In this document: piece after piece, positions 2,784 through 8,083 of the stretch
Layout of the letters: each line of letters opens with the position of its first letter
Position numbering within the stretch: the first letter of the stretch is position 1
DNA from: Escherichia phage tonijn
Reading direction: 5' to 3' (one strand)
DNA length: 51,627 bases
Sequence record: NC_049818.1
Translations under genes and position numbers: made by a program
Notes under the pieces: generated by a model
Told to the model about the DNA's origin: nothing
The model's input: the letters and a program-made list of their open reading frames with translations, nothing else
Databases searched by the model: none

Positions 2784-3219
2784 TAACTATAAGATCAGGG
2801 AATTTCACGGTGATATAAGCAGGTGGATTGATTCAGTAAGCAGCGGCCTTGTTGATTGCGTTGAAATGTTCGCGACAAACGTCCACGAGGATCTTGTAAA
2901 TCGCTCGCCAGTTGATACGGGCCGATATAAAGCCAACTGGCAGATAACATCAAACAAGCCGCCGCTATATGCGCTCAACCAATACGATCGCGATGGTAGT
3001 AAAACCATTGCAGAAGGTAAGCGAGCAATATATGCAATTATGCGTGGCGGTGGCGCTGTGCGGTCAATCTATTTTTCAAACATGCTCATTTACGCAAACG
3101 CGCTTGAATACGGGCATTCAAAACAAGCGCCGTCCGGCGTACTTGGAATCGTGGCGGTAAAGCTGCGATCTTATATGGCTAAGGCAATAAAGGATTCGAG
3201 GGCAAAAAATGCACTATGA
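2776..3219 (+). CDS. HK97 gp10-like neck/tail completion protein
   Basis: ATG 2776 ten nt after GGAGG 2761-2765; motifs TGRYKANW and YANALEYG resemble the HK97 gp10 family. Confidence 0.55.
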   Translation: MADNYKIREFHGDISRWIDSVSSGLVDCVEMFATNVHEDLVNRSPVDTGRYKANWQITSNKPPLYALNQYDRDGSKTIAEGKRAIYAIMRGGGAVRSIYFSNMLIYANALEYGHSKQAPSGVLGIVAVKLRSYMAKAIKDSRAKNAL

Positions 3220-3610
3220 TTTAATGTTGGCGGCAAGAAAGGCGCTGGCGGCTGAATATGAATCACGATTTAAGATAGCCTATGAAAACGTTGATTTTGT
3301 GCCGCCTGGAGATGGTTCTATGTGGTTAAAATTTAACTACATGGAAGCGGACACGGATCGCATATCTCTTGATAGAAAATGTGTTTCTTACATCGGTTTG
3401 GTTCAGGTTGGAATTGTTATTCCTCCTGGTGGTGGCACTGATAAAGCGCGTTTGCTGGCTAAAGAGATTGCGAGATTTTTCTATGATGGTAGAATGTTTG
3501 AAACTGGCTATATTAGCGAGGGAGCAAACGTCCACGCATTACTAAAAAGTGAAACAGGTTGGTTCTTGCCGATCCGTTTCAGTGTTAGGCTTGACACAAA
3601 GGAGGAATAA
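3209..3610 (+). CDS. Tail terminator / tail completion protein (putative)
   Basis: 133-aa ORF immediately upstream of the major tail gene. Confidence 0.45.
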   Translation: MHYDLMLAARKALAAEYESRFKIAYENVDFVPPGDGSMWLKFNYMEADTDRISLDRKCVSYIGLVQVGIVIPPGGGTDKARLLAKEIARFFYDGRMFETGYISEGANVHALLKSETGWFLPIRFSVRLDTKEE

Positions 3611-3612
3611 TC

Positions 3613-4275
3613 ATGCACTTGCCTAATGGTTCTCAAATTTTCATCGGCGTTAATATGGGCGATCCGATTCAGGCTACGGCTATCACTAACGCTAAGGAGC
3701 CTGTATTTACAGCGAGCGACACAAAAAATATCAAGAAGGGTGCTTATGTTCTGATTGAAACGTCTTCGTGGGGTAAGTTGGTTAGCCGCGTGTTGCGCGT
3801 TAAGGCTGTTACCGATAATGAAAGTGTCACCCTTGAGGGTGTTGATACTACTGATACTAACGTATTTCCTGTTGGCGAAAATACAGCAACCTTCCGAGAA
3901 GTAAAATCATGGGTAGAGATTCCTTGCGTACAGGATCTTGCGCAGGACGGCGGCGAGCAACAGTATTACACTTATCAGTGTTTGGCTGATGACCAGGAGC
4001 AGCAGTTACCGACCTATAAGAGCGCCGTTTCTCTTACCTACACTTTCGCGCATGAATATGATAACCCTATTTATCCGATCTTGCGCGAGGCTGAGGAATC
4101 CGGCGACGTAACCGCTTTGCGTATGTACGTGCCGAAAGCTAAAGAGATGCGTTGCTGGGCTGGCGTATTGTCTTTTAATGACATTCCGCAAACCACTATG
4201 AACGAAATGGAAACTGTTTCCCTTTCCGTATCTCTGAAAGGTCGATTTACGTTCTTATCTTCCGACATCAATTAA
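3613..4275 (+). CDS. Major tail protein
   Basis: 220-aa ORF directly upstream of the chaperone G/GT and tape measure genes (lambda V-G-T-H order); strong terminator 4281-4301 follows. Confidence 0.65.
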   Translation: MHLPNGSQIFIGVNMGDPIQATAITNAKEPVFTASDTKNIKKGAYVLIETSSWGKLVSRVLRVKAVTDNESVTLEGVDTTDTNVFPVGENTATFREVKSWVEIPCVQDLAQDGGEQQYYTYQCLADDQEQQLPTYKSAVSLTYTFAHEYDNPIYPILREAEESGDVTALRMYVPKAKEMRCWAGVLSFNDIPQTTMNEMETVSLSVSLKGRFTFLSSDIN

Positions 4276-4280
4276 AACAA

Positions 4281-4302
4281 GGGGCGTTGCGCCCCTTTTT
4301 TC
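4281..4302 (+). terminator. Rho-independent terminator after the major tail gene
   Basis: Hairpin ggggcgttgcgcccc followed by T6. Confidence 0.7.
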
Positions 4303-4374
4303 ATTCCTGTAAAATCAATCTATCAAATAAATCAATTCCACTTTTAACAAAAAGTGCTATAAGGAGATCTTGAG

Positions 4375-4692
4375 ATGGCAAAGATGAAACTAACGTTAGG
4401 CCCACTGCCTGATTTTAAGCTACCTGTTTCTTTCGTGCTTCCAAATGGTGATGAGCAAGTTATTGTTTTTACCGTGCGCCACAAGAAGGCAAGCGAAATT
4501 CACGAACGATACACGGCAGAAAAGCCGATGAGCGACGTAGAAATGATCACCTTTCTTGCTTCCGGTTGGGATCTGGAAGATGAATTTAACGAGGAAAACG
4601 TTGCTAAATTGCTGGATTATTACCCTTCTGCGTCATTATCGCTGACTGGTCATTATATGAAAGCACTTGCGGGGCAGCGGGTAAAAAACTAA
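4375..4692 (+). CDS. Tail assembly chaperone (gpG-like)
   Basis: 105-aa ORF with AAGGAG RBS 4361-4366; located between major tail and tape measure genes; ends in slippery heptamer. Confidence 0.65.
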   Translation: MAKMKLTLGPLPDFKLPVSFVLPNGDEQVIVFTVRHKKASEIHERYTAEKPMSDVEMITFLASGWDLEDEFNEENVAKLLDYYPSASLSLTGHYMKALAGQRVKN

Positions 4693-5009
4693 AGCGGGCG
4701 GTTTACCTGTTTTACCTCAAGCCGCCAACTGACGCACAATTAGAGGCCGTCGGCCTATCCCGTTCAGACTACGAAGGGGAGGATCCGCCGGAGGTAATTT
4801 TTGATGAATCAATGTTTCAATCTTGGGATCTGTTTTGCGCTATGCAGACGCAATGGAGATCGACTAGCGGCAGCGTGTATGGGTTCGACTATAACGTTTT
4901 GCCTATGCTTTTTGACATTTACAAGATTGAGGATCGGGAGATGGCGCTAAATGATTTGCGCATCATGGAACAAAAGGCGCTAGAAATGATTCATTCAAAC
5001 AAAACATAA
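4375..5009 (+). CDS. Tail assembly chaperone GT-like fusion made by programmed -1 frameshift
   Basis: Slippery heptamer A_AAA_AAC at 4683-4689 just before the G stop; the -1 frame is open from 4683 to stop 5007-5009 and coincides with track ORF 4812..5009. Confidence 0.55.
4683..4689 (+). other. Programmed -1 ribosomal frameshift slippery site (A AAA AAC)
   Basis: Canonical X_XXY_YYZ heptamer 3 nt before the G stop codon; position conserved in lambda-like G/GT. Confidence 0.55.
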
Positions 5010-5030
5010 GCGCCGAAAGGCGCTTTTTTA
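5009..5030 (+). terminator. Hairpin plus T-tract between GT and the tape measure gene (possible attenuator)
   Basis: agcgccgaaaggcgct followed by T6; tape measure RBS follows. Confidence 0.5.
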
Positions 5031-5048: not shown

Positions 5049-7730
5049 ATGGCTGAGAAATACGCTGGCCTAACGCTAGGCGTTGACGTGTCGCAGGTCA
5101 ATAATGCTGTTAAATCATTGCAGCAATTCAAGAAGGCAAACGACGACGCAAAAAAAAGCGTTAATGAATTTGTTGATTCTGAGGTTGTGGCGCGACAGCA
5201 AGCTAAACAGTTTGCCGAAGAATTGGCGCGCCAGAAAGCAGAATTTAAGAAAATCCAGGAGTCAATTGATCCCACCGCATCAAAGATGGATAAGCTGCGA
5301 AAGGCAGCGACACAGCTTGATGCGCTATGGAAAAAGGGCATTGTTCCTGATGAGACTTTTTTTGAGCTTGGGGCAATTCTTGAGACACAGCAAAACAAGC
5401 TGATCGCAACCAAAAAAGCGATGACAGAGGAAGGCCGCGCGGCGCTTGAGGAATCAAAGAACAAAGCGCGTGCAGCGGAAGAGGCTAAAAAATTCATCCA
5501 GGCTTTGCGTGAGCAGGAAGAAGCAGCCGGAAAAAGCAAGTCTGAATTGCTGGAAATGAAAGCGGCACAGCTTGGAGTTAGCCAGGAGGCAGCACCTTAC
5601 ATCGCAAGACTGAAAGAGCAGGAAAAGCAGATCCAAAAACTTGGGATTTCTACAGGCCAATACAATCAAGCAATGAAGCTATTGCCAATGCAGATCACAG
5701 ACGTGGTGACTTCACTTGCTTCTGGTATGCCTGTTTGGCTGGTTGCAATCCAGCAGGGCGGACAGATTAAGGATTCTTTTGGTGGCGCATCCAATGCTTT
5801 AAAAGCGTTGCTATCTTTCCTTAATCCGGTAAACGTTGCGTTTGGCTTGCTTTCCGGCACGCTGGCAATTGCTGCATATAATGCCTACAAAACACAGACA
5901 GAGTTTGAGGCAATTAAAAAAACCGTTCAGGAAACAACTGGCTTGACTGGTGATTTTGCCGAAAAGATTGCTACCGGAATCCAGGAGCTTTCCGACAAGA
6001 CAGGAGAAAGCGCCGAAGATCTGGCAAAGGCTTACATCACCACGAAAGACGGCGCGAGCGAGGCGATTAAAAAACTGGTTGACGTTGGCATGACTTATGA
6101 TGACGCAAAAAAGAAAGTCAACGAGTACAAAGGCGCATCTAGCTTTGTTGGCCTGAATAACGACATTGCAAACCACAAAAATAAAATCCTTGAGTTGGGC
6201 GAGTCGTGGTATGAAGTTTTGAAAGCGAAGCGTGATTACGCTTCCCCGTCCGGCGGCCTGTTAGGTAAAGAGCTTGGCTATGTTAATCCTATGCTTAAGT
6301 TTGCACTTAACACTTATGAAGACATTGGAAAGGTCGTAAAAGATGCTAATAAGGACATGGCTGAACGAGCGGAGCGCATCGACAAAGAAAACCTGGCCTT
6401 GAACAGAGTGAGAGCAGCACAGGAGGCTTTAAACAAAGCCATTGAAGATCAGAAGGGCGTGGCGCGTTCGGCTGATGAAGAACTGAAAAAGCGTGCGGCT
6501 GAAAACGTGGAGTTCAGACGCAAAGAGCTTGAGGAGATCAAGAAGCAGGAGCAGAAAAAGAAAGAGGCTAAAGGCGGAATAGTTCGCGGCCCGACTGAGC
6601 AGCTTGATAAAGAGTTGTACGTTTTAAAAGCGCAACTGGAAACTCTTAAAGAGCATCGCACTGTTAATGATGTTATTTCTCGCCAGCGTAAATCTTTATG
6701 GAGCATCGAAAAGCAGATCGAGATCCTGGAGGATGCGCAGAGCAAGCGTAAATTGACCGGAGCGGAACAGGCGCTACTAAACGAGCAAAAATCCGTTTTG
6801 GAAATGGCAAGGCAAAAGGCTGAATTAGGGGATCAGATTGTTTTGCAGGAGCGCAAAAACAAGCTGGAGCAAGATAGCATTAAGTTTATCCGTGAAACGC
6901 AGGCGGCTATTGATGTGCTTGGCCTTAAGCAACTTGGCTACACTGAAAAGCAGATCGAGCGTGAGCTAGAGTTACGCAAGCTGCGCACCGACTACGAGGC
7001 GCAAGGAGGAAGCGTTAGCGATGAAGTTTTTCAGCAAATGGAGGCGAAACTTAAGCAGTATTATCAGACACAGGATGAGGTTCAAGGCAACTGGTTGGCA
7101 GGAGCAAAAAACGCATGGGAGCTATTCGCGGAAGATGCAAACAATGCCTATGGCAATGTTCAGCAGATCGCAAGCGAGGCGTTAAACGGCCTTACAAACC
7201 AATTAGCGAATTTTATCGCTACTGGCAAGGCAAACTTTAAAGACTTCTCGACTGCTATCATCAAAATGATTATTCAGATGATCACGAAAATGGTTGTCTT
7301 TAATGCGTTATCTGGCCTGATGGGTGGTCAAACCTGGACGATGGGGAGCTTGCTTAAGAATATTGGCGGATTTGCTGGCGGTGGATACACTGGCGACGGC
7401 GGGAAGTATGAGCCAGCCGGAATTGTTCATAAGGGTGAATTTGTCATGACTAAGGAGGCAACGCAGCGTATCGGAGTAGGCAACTTGTACCGCATGATGC
7501 GAGGCTATGCTAACGGCGGCGTTGTTGGTGGTTCCGGCTATACTGGCGGTGGCACTGTCACTGGTGGAGCACCTCAATTTAACATCGGTGGGATTGATGT
7601 TAGCATCAATAACGGCAATGATCCGAAGGGTATCGAAACTGGTGTTAAGATGATCTTTACTGATATGATTAGACGTTCCTGTATGCAGGGCGGGGAGGTT
7701 TACGAATTTGTTATGAGCAAGCGAGGTTGA
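5049..7730 (+). CDS. Tail tape measure protein
   Basis: 893-aa ORF, Ala/Lys/Glu-rich coiled-coil sequence with Gly-rich C-terminal region; follows G/GT. Confidence 0.8.
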   Translation: MAEKYAGLTLGVDVSQVNNAVKSLQQFKKANDDAKKSVNEFVDSEVVARQQAKQFAEELARQKAEFKKIQESIDPTASKMDKLRKAATQLDALWKKGIVPDETFFELGAILETQQNKLIATKKAMTEEGRAALEESKNKARAAEEAKKFIQALREQEEAAGKSKSELLEMKAAQLGVSQEAAPYIARLKEQEKQIQKLGISTGQYNQAMKLLPMQITDVVTSLASGMPVWLVAIQQGGQIKDSFGGASNALKALLSFLNPVNVAFGLLSGTLAIAAYNAYKTQTEFEAIKKTVQETTGLTGDFAEKIATGIQELSDKTGESAEDLAKAYITTKDGASEAIKKLVDVGMTYDDAKKKVNEYKGASSFVGLNNDIANHKNKILELGESWYEVLKAKRDYASPSGGLLGKELGYVNPMLKFALNTYEDIGKVVKDANKDMAERAERIDKENLALNRVRAAQEALNKAIEDQKGVARSADEELKKRAAENVEFRRKELEEIKKQEQKKKEAKGGIVRGPTEQLDKELYVLKAQLETLKEHRTVNDVISRQRKSLWSIEKQIEILEDAQSKRKLTGAEQALLNEQKSVLEMARQKAELGDQIVLQERKNKLEQDSIKFIRETQAAIDVLGLKQLGYTEKQIERELELRKLRTDYEAQGGSVSDEVFQQMEAKLKQYYQTQDEVQGNWLAGAKNAWELFAEDANNAYGNVQQIASEALNGLTNQLANFIATGKANFKDFSTAIIKMIIQMITKMVVFNALSGLMGGQTWTMGSLLKNIGGFAGGGYTGDGGKYEPAGIVHKGEFVMTKEATQRIGVGNLYRMMRGYANGGVVGGSGYTGGGTVTGGAPQFNIGGIDVSINNGNDPKGIETGVKMIFTDMIRRSCMQGGEVYEFVMSKRG

Positions 7731-7732
7731 TA

Positions 7733-8083
7733 ATGAAGCTGGATCAGTTTAAGTGGTGTACGCAGGTTCAGAACGGCGGCGGGGCAATGACGTCATCGAA
7801 TAACGATCGAGAGATTGCATTCGGTAACGGATACACACAGGTAGCATCTGGAGGTTTTAACACAATCCGGCGAGAGTTTAGCATTGTTTACGCTGGGCTT
7901 GATTACAGAGATGTTGTCAAGTTCCTGAATGAGCACAGGCTAAAGCCTTTCTTGTGGATCATGCCTGATGGAAGCCCTGGATTGTTCAGGGTGAAAAGCG
8001 GCAGCGTCGGCCTTACTCCACTGTCGCCAACCGTTCAGGAAGTAAAAGCCACTTTTACGGAGCAATTTACATCAATGCAATAA
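7733..8083 (+). CDS. Minor tail protein (lambda gpM-like)
   Basis: ATG 7733; 116 aa; first of the M-L-K-I-J order after the tape measure gene. Confidence 0.6.
   Translation: MKLDQFKWCTQVQNGGGAMTSSNNDREIAFGNGYTQVASGGFNTIRREFSIVYAGLDYRDVVKFLNEHRLKPFLWIMPDGSPGLFRVKSGSVGLTPLSPTVQEVKATFTEQFTSMQ

What the first reader, a model, noticed from the sequence alone, without database searches (positions are those of the whole stretch)
4375..5009. Programmed -1 frameshift (A_AAA_AAC) producing a GT-type tail chaperone fusion
The gpG-like ORF ends GTA-AAA-AAC-TAA. The heptamer A AAA AAC (4683-4689) is a canonical slippery site, and the -1 frame is open from there for 107 codons to stop 5007-5009, overlapping track ORF 4812..5009. 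This matches the conserved G/GT frameshift upstream of tape measure genes in long-tailed phages.
Basis: partly seen in the sequence, partly recalled or inferred. Interest (0 to 1): 0.45.

Follow-up and report, generated by a model that had tools for sequence, protein, structure and literature searches.

The report
Tail chaperone G/GT frameshift site
This is the well-known "G/GT" trick of long-tailed phages, here in a T1-like coliphage: a few ribosomes slip back one base at the end of the tail-chaperone gene and make a longer fusion protein. It is real and strongly conserved, but ordinary and already annotated in close relatives.

Summary
ORF 4375-4692 (105 aa, Pfam Phage_TAC_4) ends CGG GTA AAA AAC TAA. 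The heptamer A_AAA_AAC (4683-4689) is in phase and abuts the stop codon. The -1 frame is open to 5007-5009 and has no ATG/GTG/TTG before 4812.

The pair lies between the tail tube gene (3613-4275) and the tape measure gene (5049-7730).

- **Fusion product:** the 211-aa fusion matches PHROG 17368 end to end (E 6e-99).
- **Translation in the -1 frame:** the 41 start-less -1 codons (4689-4811) give dN/dS of 0.05-0.17 in five comparisons. The other two frames give 1 or more.
- **Conservation:** A_AAA_AAC plus stop is invariant in 27 other unique G sequences, T1 included, at 43-100% G identity to the window. Three more distant relatives carry G_GGA_AAC plus stop.
- **Heptamer constraint:** only 6 of 104 third codon positions of G are invariant, and three of them are the heptamer codons.
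- **Hairpin:** a hairpin 7 nt downstream (4697-4726) folds better than 98% of synonymous recodings, but shows no covariation.

Phages Stevie (same heptamer) and Sushi already annotate the joined CDS. The closest relatives checked (four Warwickvirus records, one Hanrivervirus record) and T1 itself do not. No experiment is available.

Verdict: already known, low interest. Its main value is as an annotation correction.

The parts
3613..4275 (+). Tail tube (major tail) protein gene, the upstream neighbour that defines the G/GT position
   Evidence: Pfam Phage_tail_3, E 5e-65. Annotated as major tail protein in near-identical phages.
4279..4297 (+). Terminator-like hairpin followed by a T-run, between the tube gene and G
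   Evidence: Pattern scan. The same position is annotated as a terminator in T1, Stevie, Sushi and Sip.
4361..4366 (+). Shine-Dalgarno sequence AAGGAG, 8 nt upstream of the G start codon
   Evidence: Read directly from the sequence.
4375..4692 (+). G: tail assembly (tape measure) chaperone, 105 aa, product of normal translation
   Evidence: ORF list and translation. Pfam Phage_TAC_4, E 5e-31, full length. phrog_569 and phrog_17368.
4683..4689 (+). Slippery heptamer A_AAA_AAC, in phase with G
   Evidence: Sequence. Found in 32 of 40 sequences scanned and invariant in all 29 unique G sequences aligned, T1 included. Its three codons supply 3 of the 6 invariant third positions among 104.
4690..4692 (+). 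Zero-frame stop TAA, directly abutting the heptamer
   Evidence: Sequence. A stop (TAA or TGA) follows the heptamer directly in every relative that has a heptamer.
4697..4726 (+). Candidate stimulatory hairpin: 8 bp (GGCGGUUU / AAGCCGCC), 14-nt loop, 7-nt spacer after the heptamer
   Evidence: It is the main stem of the MFE fold of the 71 nt 4690-4760 (total -20.5 kcal/mol, z = -1.27). A hairpin in this position is present in most relatives. The 50-nt downstream segment folds at -13.2 kcal/mol, more stable than 97.9% of synonymous recodings. No covariation. Function is inferred.
4689..5009 (+). T segment: -1 frame, 106 codons plus stop (5007-5009), translated only as the C-terminal part of GT
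   Evidence: Pfam DUF1799, E 1.5e-12, covering T residues 23-101. phrog_680 covers residues 9-105. dN/dS 0.05-0.17 over 4689-4811. No ATG/GTG/TTG before 4812.
4375..5009 (+). GT fusion, join(4375..4689, 4689..5009), 211 aa, 24.3 kDa
   Evidence: phrog_17368 matched 1-209 against profile positions 1-211 of 213, E 5.6e-99. Equivalent joined CDS annotated in Stevie and Sushi. Mass.
5008..5025 (+). Terminator-like hairpin followed by a T-run, between T and the tape measure gene
   Evidence: Pattern scan. Annotated as a terminator in relatives.
5049..7730 (+). Tape measure protein gene, the downstream neighbour and presumed client of G/GT
   Evidence: Pfam TMP_2, E 1e-36, and Tape_meas_lam_C, E 2e-22.

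Best explanation
The window is a T1-like coliphage (Drexlerviridae, closest to the genus Warwickvirus).

Most ribosomes translating gene 4375-4692 stop at TAA 4690-4692 and release the 105-aa tail assembly chaperone G. A small fraction slip back one nucleotide on A_AAA_AAC (4683-4689). The Lys and Asn tRNAs re-pair from AAA AAC to AAA AAA. Decoding then resumes at CTA (4689-4691) and continues in the -1 frame to 5007-5009. The result is a 211-aa fusion, GT, with the junction ...GQRVKN-LKRAVYL...

By analogy with lambda gpG/gpGT, the shared G part is expected to coat the tape measure protein (5049-7730). The T part (DUF1799) is expected to recruit the tail tube protein (3613-4275). Neither protein is expected to end up in the virion.

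The low-efficiency heptamer probably sets a low GT:G ratio. The adjacent stop codon and the hairpin 7 nt downstream (4697-4726) may assist.

Shown here: the sequence anatomy, translation of the -1 frame from the shift site (from the selection pattern), and conservation of the signal. Inferred: the slippage itself, its efficiency, the role of the hairpin and the stop codon, and the binding partners.
For: **Anatomy.**
- The heptamer is in phase and abuts the stop.
- G has a well-spaced Shine-Dalgarno sequence.
- The -1 ORF has no ATG/GTG/TTG before 4812.
- The only SD-like GGAGG (4790-4794) lies 17 nt upstream of that ATG.

**Gene context.** The order is terminator protein, tube, G, T, tape measure, gpM-like minor tail protein.

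**Families.** G is Phage_TAC_4 and T is DUF1799. The DUF1799 match starts 19 residues upstream of Met-42, the ATG at 4812. The fusion matches phrog_17368 over its whole length with no break at the junction.

**Comparative evidence.**
- tblastn finds G and T as two pieces in adjacent frames in 58 of 60 sampled records, out of 1127 matching records.
- A_AAA_AAC plus stop is found in 32 of 40 sequences scanned, with G identity down to 40%. T1 also has it. Three distant relatives have G_GGA_AAC plus stop.
- T homology starts at T residue 1 in 39 of 40 sequences scanned. The motif LKRAV follows the shift directly in the 22 unique T sequences from loci that carry A_AAA_AAC, apart from the Dhillonvirus locus L036.
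- dN/dS over 4689-4811 is 0.05-0.17 in the -1 frame for the five comparisons where it could be computed. It is 1 or more in the other two frames.
- 39 of 41 third positions vary there.
- In G, only 6 of 104 third positions are invariant, and three of them are the heptamer codons.
- The C at heptamer position 7 never changes, although T would be synonymous in both frames (AAC to AAT for Asn, CTA to TTA for Leu). This is my reading.

**Precedent.**
- The lambda G/GT mechanism, with its 30:1 ratio, is established (PMC5009743).
- Stevie has the same heptamer and an annotated join. [quoted passage not shown] Sushi also has a join. U136B was annotated by hand via a slippery sequence (PMC8104045).

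**Hairpin.** It lies at a 7-nt spacer, recurs in most relatives, and is stronger than 97.9% to more than 99.9% of synonymous recodings in most lineages.
Against: - No protein-level or reporter evidence exists for this phage or, as far as I could find, for any T1-like phage.
- A_AAA_AAC is a weak shifter in E. coli (PMC4066793), so the yield may be very low.
- The hairpin is not significant against dinucleotide shuffles (z = -1.27). It shows no compensatory changes and is absent in some relatives (L026, L035, L031). Both arms also encode conserved residues (RAV, KPP).
- Rogue1 and Sushi lack a full heptamer. They have only A_AAG or A_AAA, one codon before the last sense codon. The exact slip mechanism is therefore not uniform in the family.
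- The T domain has no detectable sequence similarity to lambda gpT. Its proposed binding to the tube protein rests on analogy alone.
Confidence: 0.9

Rival explanations
1. T is a separate small protein (65 aa, 7.8 kDa) started at ATG 4812, as many GenBank records annotate it. Under this reading no frameshift is needed.
For: ORF 4812..5009 exists. It is annotated as its own CDS in records such as Sip, NorthRox and, in a shorter form, T1 ST39. A Met at this position is present in many relatives.
Against: - The 41 codons upstream of 4812 are under strong purifying selection in the -1 frame.
- Those codons carry part of the DUF1799 and phrog_680 homology.
- There is no start codon in them.
- The nearest SD-like sequence is 17 nt from the ATG.
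- The first possible start in the T frame falls at different positions in relatives.
- Sushi has no Met at this position.
Confidence: 0.04
2. The fusion arises by transcriptional slippage. RNA polymerase adds one A in the A6 run, so a subset of mRNAs encodes GT in a single frame, with the junction ...VKK-LKR... instead of ...VKN-LKR...
For: The site is a run of six A residues. An extra A would give the same downstream frame. Three public assemblies differ in run length (A5) at this site.
Against: - Efficient bacterial transcriptional slippage is known for longer runs of about 8-9 or more (my knowledge, after Baranov et al. 2005 as cited in PMC4066793).
- Relatives use G_GGA_AAC, GCA AAG G or CAA AAG, with only three or four A residues in the run. 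These sites can support tRNA slippage but hardly polymerase slippage.
- The strict phase of the heptamer and the invariant C at position 7 are properties of a ribosomal signal.
- The A5 assemblies carry other homopolymer indels nearby, so they look like sequencing errors.
Confidence: 0.04
3. The outcome is the same (-1 shift, GT fusion), but the event is a termination-coupled single-tRNA slip. With AAC in the P site and UAA in the A site, slow termination lets peptidyl-tRNA-Asn slide back one base (a 'shifty stop'). This would replace the classic tandem slip of two tRNAs.
For: The stop codon abuts the heptamer in the window and in every relative with a heptamer (0 nt distance). In other phage sets the average distance from slip site to stop is 26-36 nt (PMC10885494). 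Relatives without a heptamer still place a single slippery Lys codon within two codons of the stop.
Against: - The position of the stop is also fixed by the T-frame codons: CTA/CTG (Leu) followed by an A. Its conservation therefore need not reflect a role in shifting.
- The XXX part of the heptamer (GTA or GCA third base A, then AAA) is also invariant. That argues for two-tRNA re-pairing.
- The stimulation of -1 shifts by an adjacent stop is recalled from the literature (Weiss et al. 1987) and was not checked here.
Confidence: 0.2
4. The frame break is an artefact. Either it is a sequencing error in a homopolymer, so that G and T are really one ORF, or T is a decaying pseudogene.
For: The break is at a homopolymer run, a typical place for indel errors.
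Against: - The same two-frame arrangement with the same A6 run is found in 31 other sequences scanned, from independently sequenced phages and viral contigs.
- 58 of 60 sampled records, out of 1127 matching records, show two pieces.
- T is under purifying selection.
Confidence: 0.01

Closest known systems
Citrobacter phage Stevie (KM236241, Tlsvirus) tape measure chaperone pair CPT_Stevie15/16; also Klebsiella phage Sushi (NC_028774) gp14/gp15 and E. coli phage U136B
   Same: These are homologous genes in the same family, and Stevie is in the same subfamily, Tempevirinae. Stevie's locus (L018, 49,816-bp contig) has the same A_AAA_AAC plus TAA at the end of G. Its annotated joined CDS is 210 aa, against 211 aa here. 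The frameshift is mentioned in print (PMC4319613, PMC8104045).
   Different: The window's closest relatives that I checked do not annotate the join. They are four Warwickvirus records (mar001J1, tunzivis, Sip, NorthRox), one Hanrivervirus record (egaa) and T1 itself. Sushi uses GCA AAA GTT TAA, not a full heptamer. All of these are predictions, and none has been demonstrated experimentally.
Phage lambda gpG / gpGT (-1 frameshift at G_GGA_AAG; Levin et al. 1993; Xu, Hendrix and Duda 2004, 2013, 2014)
   Same: - Same gene position, between the tube gene V and the tape measure gene H (one search compared).
- Same logic: a short chaperone plus a rarer -1 fusion that extends it by a second domain.
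- The neighbouring tape measure protein carries the lambda C-terminal domain.
   Different: - The sequence families differ. Lambda G is Phage_TAC_2 and lambda T is Phage_tail_T; here they are Phage_TAC_4 and DUF1799.
- No profile similarity was found between the T domains.
- Lambda's slip site lies upstream of the G stop and uses the efficient ...A_AAG. Here the weak ...A_AAC abuts the stop.
- Lambda's mechanism is proven; this one is inferred.
IS1 insA-insB' -1 frameshift in E. coli
   Same: Identical heptamer, A_AAA_AAC, working in the same host with low efficiency and no established stimulator (PMC4066793). It shows that this motif does function in E. coli.
   Different: The proteins and the biology are unrelated (transposase regulation, not virion assembly).
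Haloarchaeal virus HCTV-2 g-t frameshift
   Same: A G/T-type tail chaperone frameshift reported to use A_AAA_AAC. HCTV-1 uses G_GGA_AAC (PMC5009743). These are the same two motifs seen in this family.
   Different: The host is archaeal. No sequence relationship was tested here.

Membership tests
G/GT-type tail assembly chaperone with programmed -1 frameshift (Xu, Hendrix and Duda 2004) | Two ORFs located between the major tail (tube) gene and the tape measure gene | tested here: met
   Tube gene 3613-4275 (Phage_tail_3), G 4375-4692, T to 5009, tape measure gene 5049-7730 (TMP_2, Tape_meas_lam_C).
G/GT-type tail assembly chaperone with programmed -1 frameshift (Xu, Hendrix and Duda 2004) | The second ORF overlaps the first in the -1 frame and lacks its own credible start | tested here: met
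   The -1 frame is open from about 4608. There is no ATG/GTG/TTG before 4812. The SD-like GGAGG lies 17 nt from that ATG.
G/GT-type tail assembly chaperone with programmed -1 frameshift (Xu, Hendrix and Duda 2004) | An in-phase slippery sequence within the overlap | tested here: met
   A_AAA_AAC at 4683-4689, in phase. The motif is proven in E. coli for IS1 (PMC4066793).
G/GT-type tail assembly chaperone with programmed -1 frameshift (Xu, Hendrix and Duda 2004) | The arrangement and the slip site are conserved among diverged relatives | tested here: met
   Heptamer plus stop is conserved in 32 of 40 sequences scanned and in T1. Three distant relatives carry G_GGA_AAC. The three heptamer codons are invariant at third positions, where 98 of 104 third positions vary.
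G/GT-type tail assembly chaperone with programmed -1 frameshift (Xu, Hendrix and Duda 2004) | The -1 frame is translated from the shift site onward | tested here: met
   dN/dS is 0.05-0.17 in the -1 frame over 4689-4811, against 1 or more in the other frames. Homology starts at T residue 1. This evidence is indirect (evolutionary).
G/GT-type tail assembly chaperone with programmed -1 frameshift (Xu, Hendrix and Duda 2004) | A fusion protein is made at a low ratio to G and is needed for tail assembly | not testable with these tools
   This needs a western blot, mass spectrometry, a reporter assay or genetics. No published data for T1-like phages were found.
Pfam PF08748 Phage_TAC_4 | Score above the gathering threshold over the full domain | tested here: met
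   107.9 bits against a cutoff of 21.1. Residues 1-105 match profile positions 1-124 of 124.
Pfam PF08809 DUF1799 (the T domain of this family) | Score above the gathering threshold | tested here: met
   48 bits against a cutoff of 26. T residues 23-101 match profile positions 3-80 of 80.
Lambda gpG (PF06894) and gpT (PF06223) sequence families | Detectable sequence similarity to lambda G or T | tested here: not met
   Pfam assigns different families. hhalign of the T alignment against lambda T gives probability 0.5%. The system works like lambda G/GT but is not a member of those sequence families.
-1 PRF signal with a downstream stimulatory RNA structure | A stable structure 5-9 nt after the heptamer, supported beyond what coding constraint explains | tested here: inconclusive
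   An 8-bp hairpin at 4697-4726 with a 7-nt spacer. z = -1.27 against shuffles. No covariation. It is stronger than 97.9% of synonymous recodings here and than more than 99.9% in several relatives, but absent in three lineages.
Transcriptional slippage site | A long homopolymer run (about 8-9 or more) shared by relatives | tested here: not met
   The run is only A6 here. Relatives with the same gene arrangement have only three or four A residues in the run.

The most novel reading that the evidence does not exclude
The signal may be a tuned, three-part, low-output device rather than a plain heptamer. The three parts would be a deliberately weak A_AAA_AAC (or G_GGA_AAC), a stop codon placed directly against it so that slow termination feeds the slip, and a hairpin 7 nt downstream kept by selection on synonymous sites.

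The C at position 7 is invariant even though T would be silent in both frames. That would mean the GT:G ratio is under tight selection across this phage family.
Probability: 0.3. Interest if true: 0.3.

Novelty: already known. Interest (0 to 1): 0.12.

Why it matters
The main value is correct annotation.

The closest relatives I checked (four Warwickvirus records and one Hanrivervirus record) and T1 itself list G and a truncated 55-65 aa 'T' ORF, or nothing, instead of the 211-aa GT fusion. PHROG-derived and RefSeq names call these chaperones 'tail length tape measure protein'. Adding join(4375..4689,4689..5009) and the name 'tail assembly chaperone' would fix this.

Biologically it adds one more well-conserved example of the G/GT rule. 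[quoted passage not shown] That series could be used to study how E. coli phages set a low frameshift ratio. It opens no new question.

Tried and rejected
- **Independent start for T.** Rejected on the selection pattern, the extent of homology and the poor RBS spacing.
- **Upstream SD-like stimulator, as in dnaX or IS911.** The G-rich stretch 4671-4681 is not a good SD and is not conserved in relatives. Dropped.
- **Pseudoknot.** A 4-bp loop-to-downstream pairing (CCUC 4715-4718 with GAGG 4743-4746) is possible by eye. The loop sequence is not kept in relatives. Dropped.
- **Covariation support for the hairpin.** None found.
- **Homology of the T domain to lambda gpT.** None found.
- **Solved structures.** No PDB relative by sequence; best E-value 0.59.
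- **Large protein database search with the fusion.** It returned only three T-only proteins of 123-136 aa and no natural in-frame fusion, so it was uninformative.
- **Xu et al. 2004.** The paper could not be read, so I cannot say whether T1 was in their table.
- **Structure prediction.** Not run.
- **A5 variants in HCF1, L014 and L030.** Considered as real polymorphism, which would require a +1 shift. Judged to be homopolymer sequencing errors because other 1-nt indels lie nearby.

Full report
**What the window is.** The 1.5 kb around the finding is 98.9% identical to Escherichia phage vB_Eco_mar001J1. It is 94-97% identical to other Warwickvirus phages (Drexlerviridae, Tempevirinae), which are T1-like siphophages of E. 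coli.

**Checking the observation.**
- The sequence reads ...CGG GTA AAA AAC TAA in the frame of ORF 4375-4692.
- The heptamer A_AAA_AAC occupies 4683-4689 in the phase required for a tandem -1 slip. The zero-frame stop follows at once (4690-4692).
- The -1 frame is open from about 4608 to the stop at 5007-5009.
- ORF 4812..5009 is the first stretch in that frame that begins with ATG, GTG or TTG. The 41 codons between the shift site and 4812 therefore have no start codon.
It is 107 only if the re-read AAA codon is included.
- The fusion would be 211 aa and 24.3 kDa, against 11.9 kDa for G.
- G has a good Shine-Dalgarno sequence (AAGGAG, 8 nt upstream). The ATG at 4812 has only a GGAGG 17 nt away.

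**Is it more than chance?** One in-phase heptamer in a 27-codon overlap is not rare on its own. I scanned all mechanical ORFs of at least 80 aa on both strands and found 68 in-phase X_XXY_YYZ heptamers. Only five open into 100 or more -1 codons. The other four lie in spurious ORFs nested inside longer ORFs. This site is the only one at the end of a real gene that leads into a long start-less ORF.

**What the proteins are.**
- G is a full-length Pfam Phage_TAC_4 tail assembly chaperone (E 5e-31).
- The -1 segment is Pfam DUF1799 (E 1.5e-12). That match begins at T residue 23, 19 residues upstream of the ATG-encoded Met at residue 42.
- In PHROGs the T segment matches phrog_680 from residue 9. 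The conceptual fusion matches phrog_17368 from end to end (residues 1-209 on profile positions 1-211 of 213, E 5.6e-99), with no break at the junction.
- The neighbours are tail terminator (3209-3610), tail tube (3613-4275), tape measure (5049-7730, with lambda's C-terminal domain) and a gpM-like minor tail protein (7727-8083). This is the lambda order U-V-G-T-H-M.

**Comparative evidence.**
- tblastn with the fusion finds 1127 phage records. In 58 of 60 sampled rows G and T appear as two adjacent pieces.
- I scanned 40 sequences: 39 loci fetched from GenBank phages and IMG/VR contigs, plus the window itself. The heptamer A_AAA_AAC followed directly by a stop is present in 32 of them, with G identity down to 40%. 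T1 also has it (GCA AAA AAC TAA).
- Three more distant relatives (25-41% identity, from Pseudomonas and Ralstonia phages and a metagenomic contig) have G_GGA_AAC plus stop.
- Rogue1 (GCA AAG GTC TAA), Sushi (GCA AAA GTT TAA) and ST22 (CAA AAG CCC TGA) lack a full heptamer. They keep a slippery Lys codon within two codons of the stop.
- In 39 of the 40 sequences, T homology starts at T residue 1. The motif LKRAV follows the shift directly in the 22 unique T sequences from loci that carry A_AAA_AAC, apart from the Dhillonvirus locus L036.

**Selection.**
- Over 4689-4811, the part that no start codon can reach, dN/dS against eight relatives could be computed for five of them. It is 0.05-0.17 in the -1 frame and 1 or more in the other two frames.
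- 39 of 41 third positions vary in that stretch. It is therefore translated in the -1 frame.
- In G, across 29 unique sequences, only 6 of 104 third codon positions are invariant. Two belong to ATG and TGG. Three are the last three codons, GTA/GCA, AAA and AAC, which form the heptamer.
- The C at position 7 is never T, although T would be silent in both frames. That points to selection on the signal itself.

**Downstream RNA structure.**
- An 8-bp hairpin (4697-4726) starts 7 nt after the heptamer. A hairpin in this position recurs in most relatives.
- It is unremarkable against dinucleotide shuffles (z = -1.27) and shows no compensatory changes.
- I then kept the protein sequence fixed and redrew synonymous codons. 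The native 50-nt segment folds at -13.2 kcal/mol, better than 97.9% of recodings in the window. In several relatives it beats more than 99.9%. It does not do so in L026, L035 and L031.
- I rate it a plausible but unproven stimulator.

**Mechanism.** The most likely reading is the standard one. Most ribosomes make G. A small fraction slip -1 on A_AAA_AAC and make GT. [quoted passage not shown] Both are nevertheless used, and IS1 is a proven A_AAA_AAC case (PMC4066793). In lambda, the G:GT ratio of about 30:1 matters for tail assembly. There G binds the tape measure protein and T binds the tube protein (PMC5009743). Applying those roles here is inference, because the T domain shows no detectable similarity to lambda gpT and G belongs to a different Pfam family.

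**Rivals.**
- Independent initiation at 4812 is contradicted by the selection pattern, the extent of homology and the lack of a proper RBS.
- Transcriptional slippage is unlikely on A6. It cannot explain relatives with only three or four A residues in the run.
- A termination-coupled single-tRNA slip is a variant I cannot exclude, because the stop always abuts the heptamer. However, the T-frame codons also fix that stop.
- A sequencing artefact is excluded by the number of independent genomes with the same arrangement.

**Comparison with what is known.** The homologous site is already annotated as a joined CDS in Citrobacter phage Stevie (same subfamily, same heptamer, 210-aa product) and in Klebsiella phage Sushi. 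[quoted passage not shown] U136B was annotated the same way by hand (PMC8104045). The window's closest relatives that I checked (four Warwickvirus records, one Hanrivervirus record) and T1 itself do not annotate the join. One record marks the region 'unable to determine intron boundaries'.

**Verdict.** The finding is real and correctly interpreted, but it is a known feature of this phage family. Its practical value is an annotation fix. Interest is low.

Noticed in passing
window 4279-4297 and 5008-5025: Terminator-like GC hairpins with T-runs bracket the G/T pair. The second overlaps the T stop codon and lies just before the tape measure start. Relatives annotate terminators at the same places. 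This suggests stepwise attenuation of transcription from the tube gene to the chaperones to the tape measure gene.
   Followed up: partly
window 4375-5009; PHROGs 569, 680 and 17368; many RefSeq records: The chaperone G, the T ORF and the GT fusion are named 'tail length tape measure protein' in PHROGs and in RefSeq re-annotations of many T1-like phages. This looks like a propagated mislabel for tail assembly chaperones.
   Followed up: partly
L006 (Citrobacter phage HCF1, NC_054897) 690-720; L014 and L030 (IMG/VR) about 1800-1830: Three public assemblies have A5 instead of A6 at the slip site, which would put T in the +1 frame. Each also has other single-base homopolymer indels nearby, so they are probably sequencing errors. 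If real, they would need a different recoding event.
   Followed up: partly
L014 (IMGVR_UViG_2974632794_000001) about 2040-2100: The end of T, the intergenic terminator and the first codons of the tape measure gene appear to be missing. The sequence joins ...EDREM to SEQYAGLTLGVD. This is either a deletion or an assembly artefact.
   Followed up: no
L007 (Klebsiella phage vB_KM5a1-KLB26, PP556865.1) 401-1029: The depositors marked the whole G/T region as a misc_feature: 'similar to coding tape measure chaperone; unable to determine intron boundaries'. The frame break was noticed but not recognised as a frameshift. The locus has the same A_AAA_AAC TAA.
   Followed up: yes
window 7106-7112: A second in-phase A_AAA_AAC lies inside the tape measure gene. 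The -1 frame is open for only 42 codons after it, so it is most likely chance.
   Followed up: no
L033 (Rogue1), L034 (Sushi), L038 (Enterobacter phage ST22), at the ends of their G genes: [quoted passage not shown] It always lies within two codons of the G stop. This is a natural series for comparing slip-site strength.
   Followed up: partly
window 4375-4692 (G): A 2026 preprint reports that a bacterial STAND/Avs immune sensor (Avs17) recognises the N-terminal core of phage tail assembly chaperones, the part shared by the short and the frameshifted isoforms (10.64898/2026.01.04.697583). Whether this phage's G is such a target was not examined.
   Followed up: no
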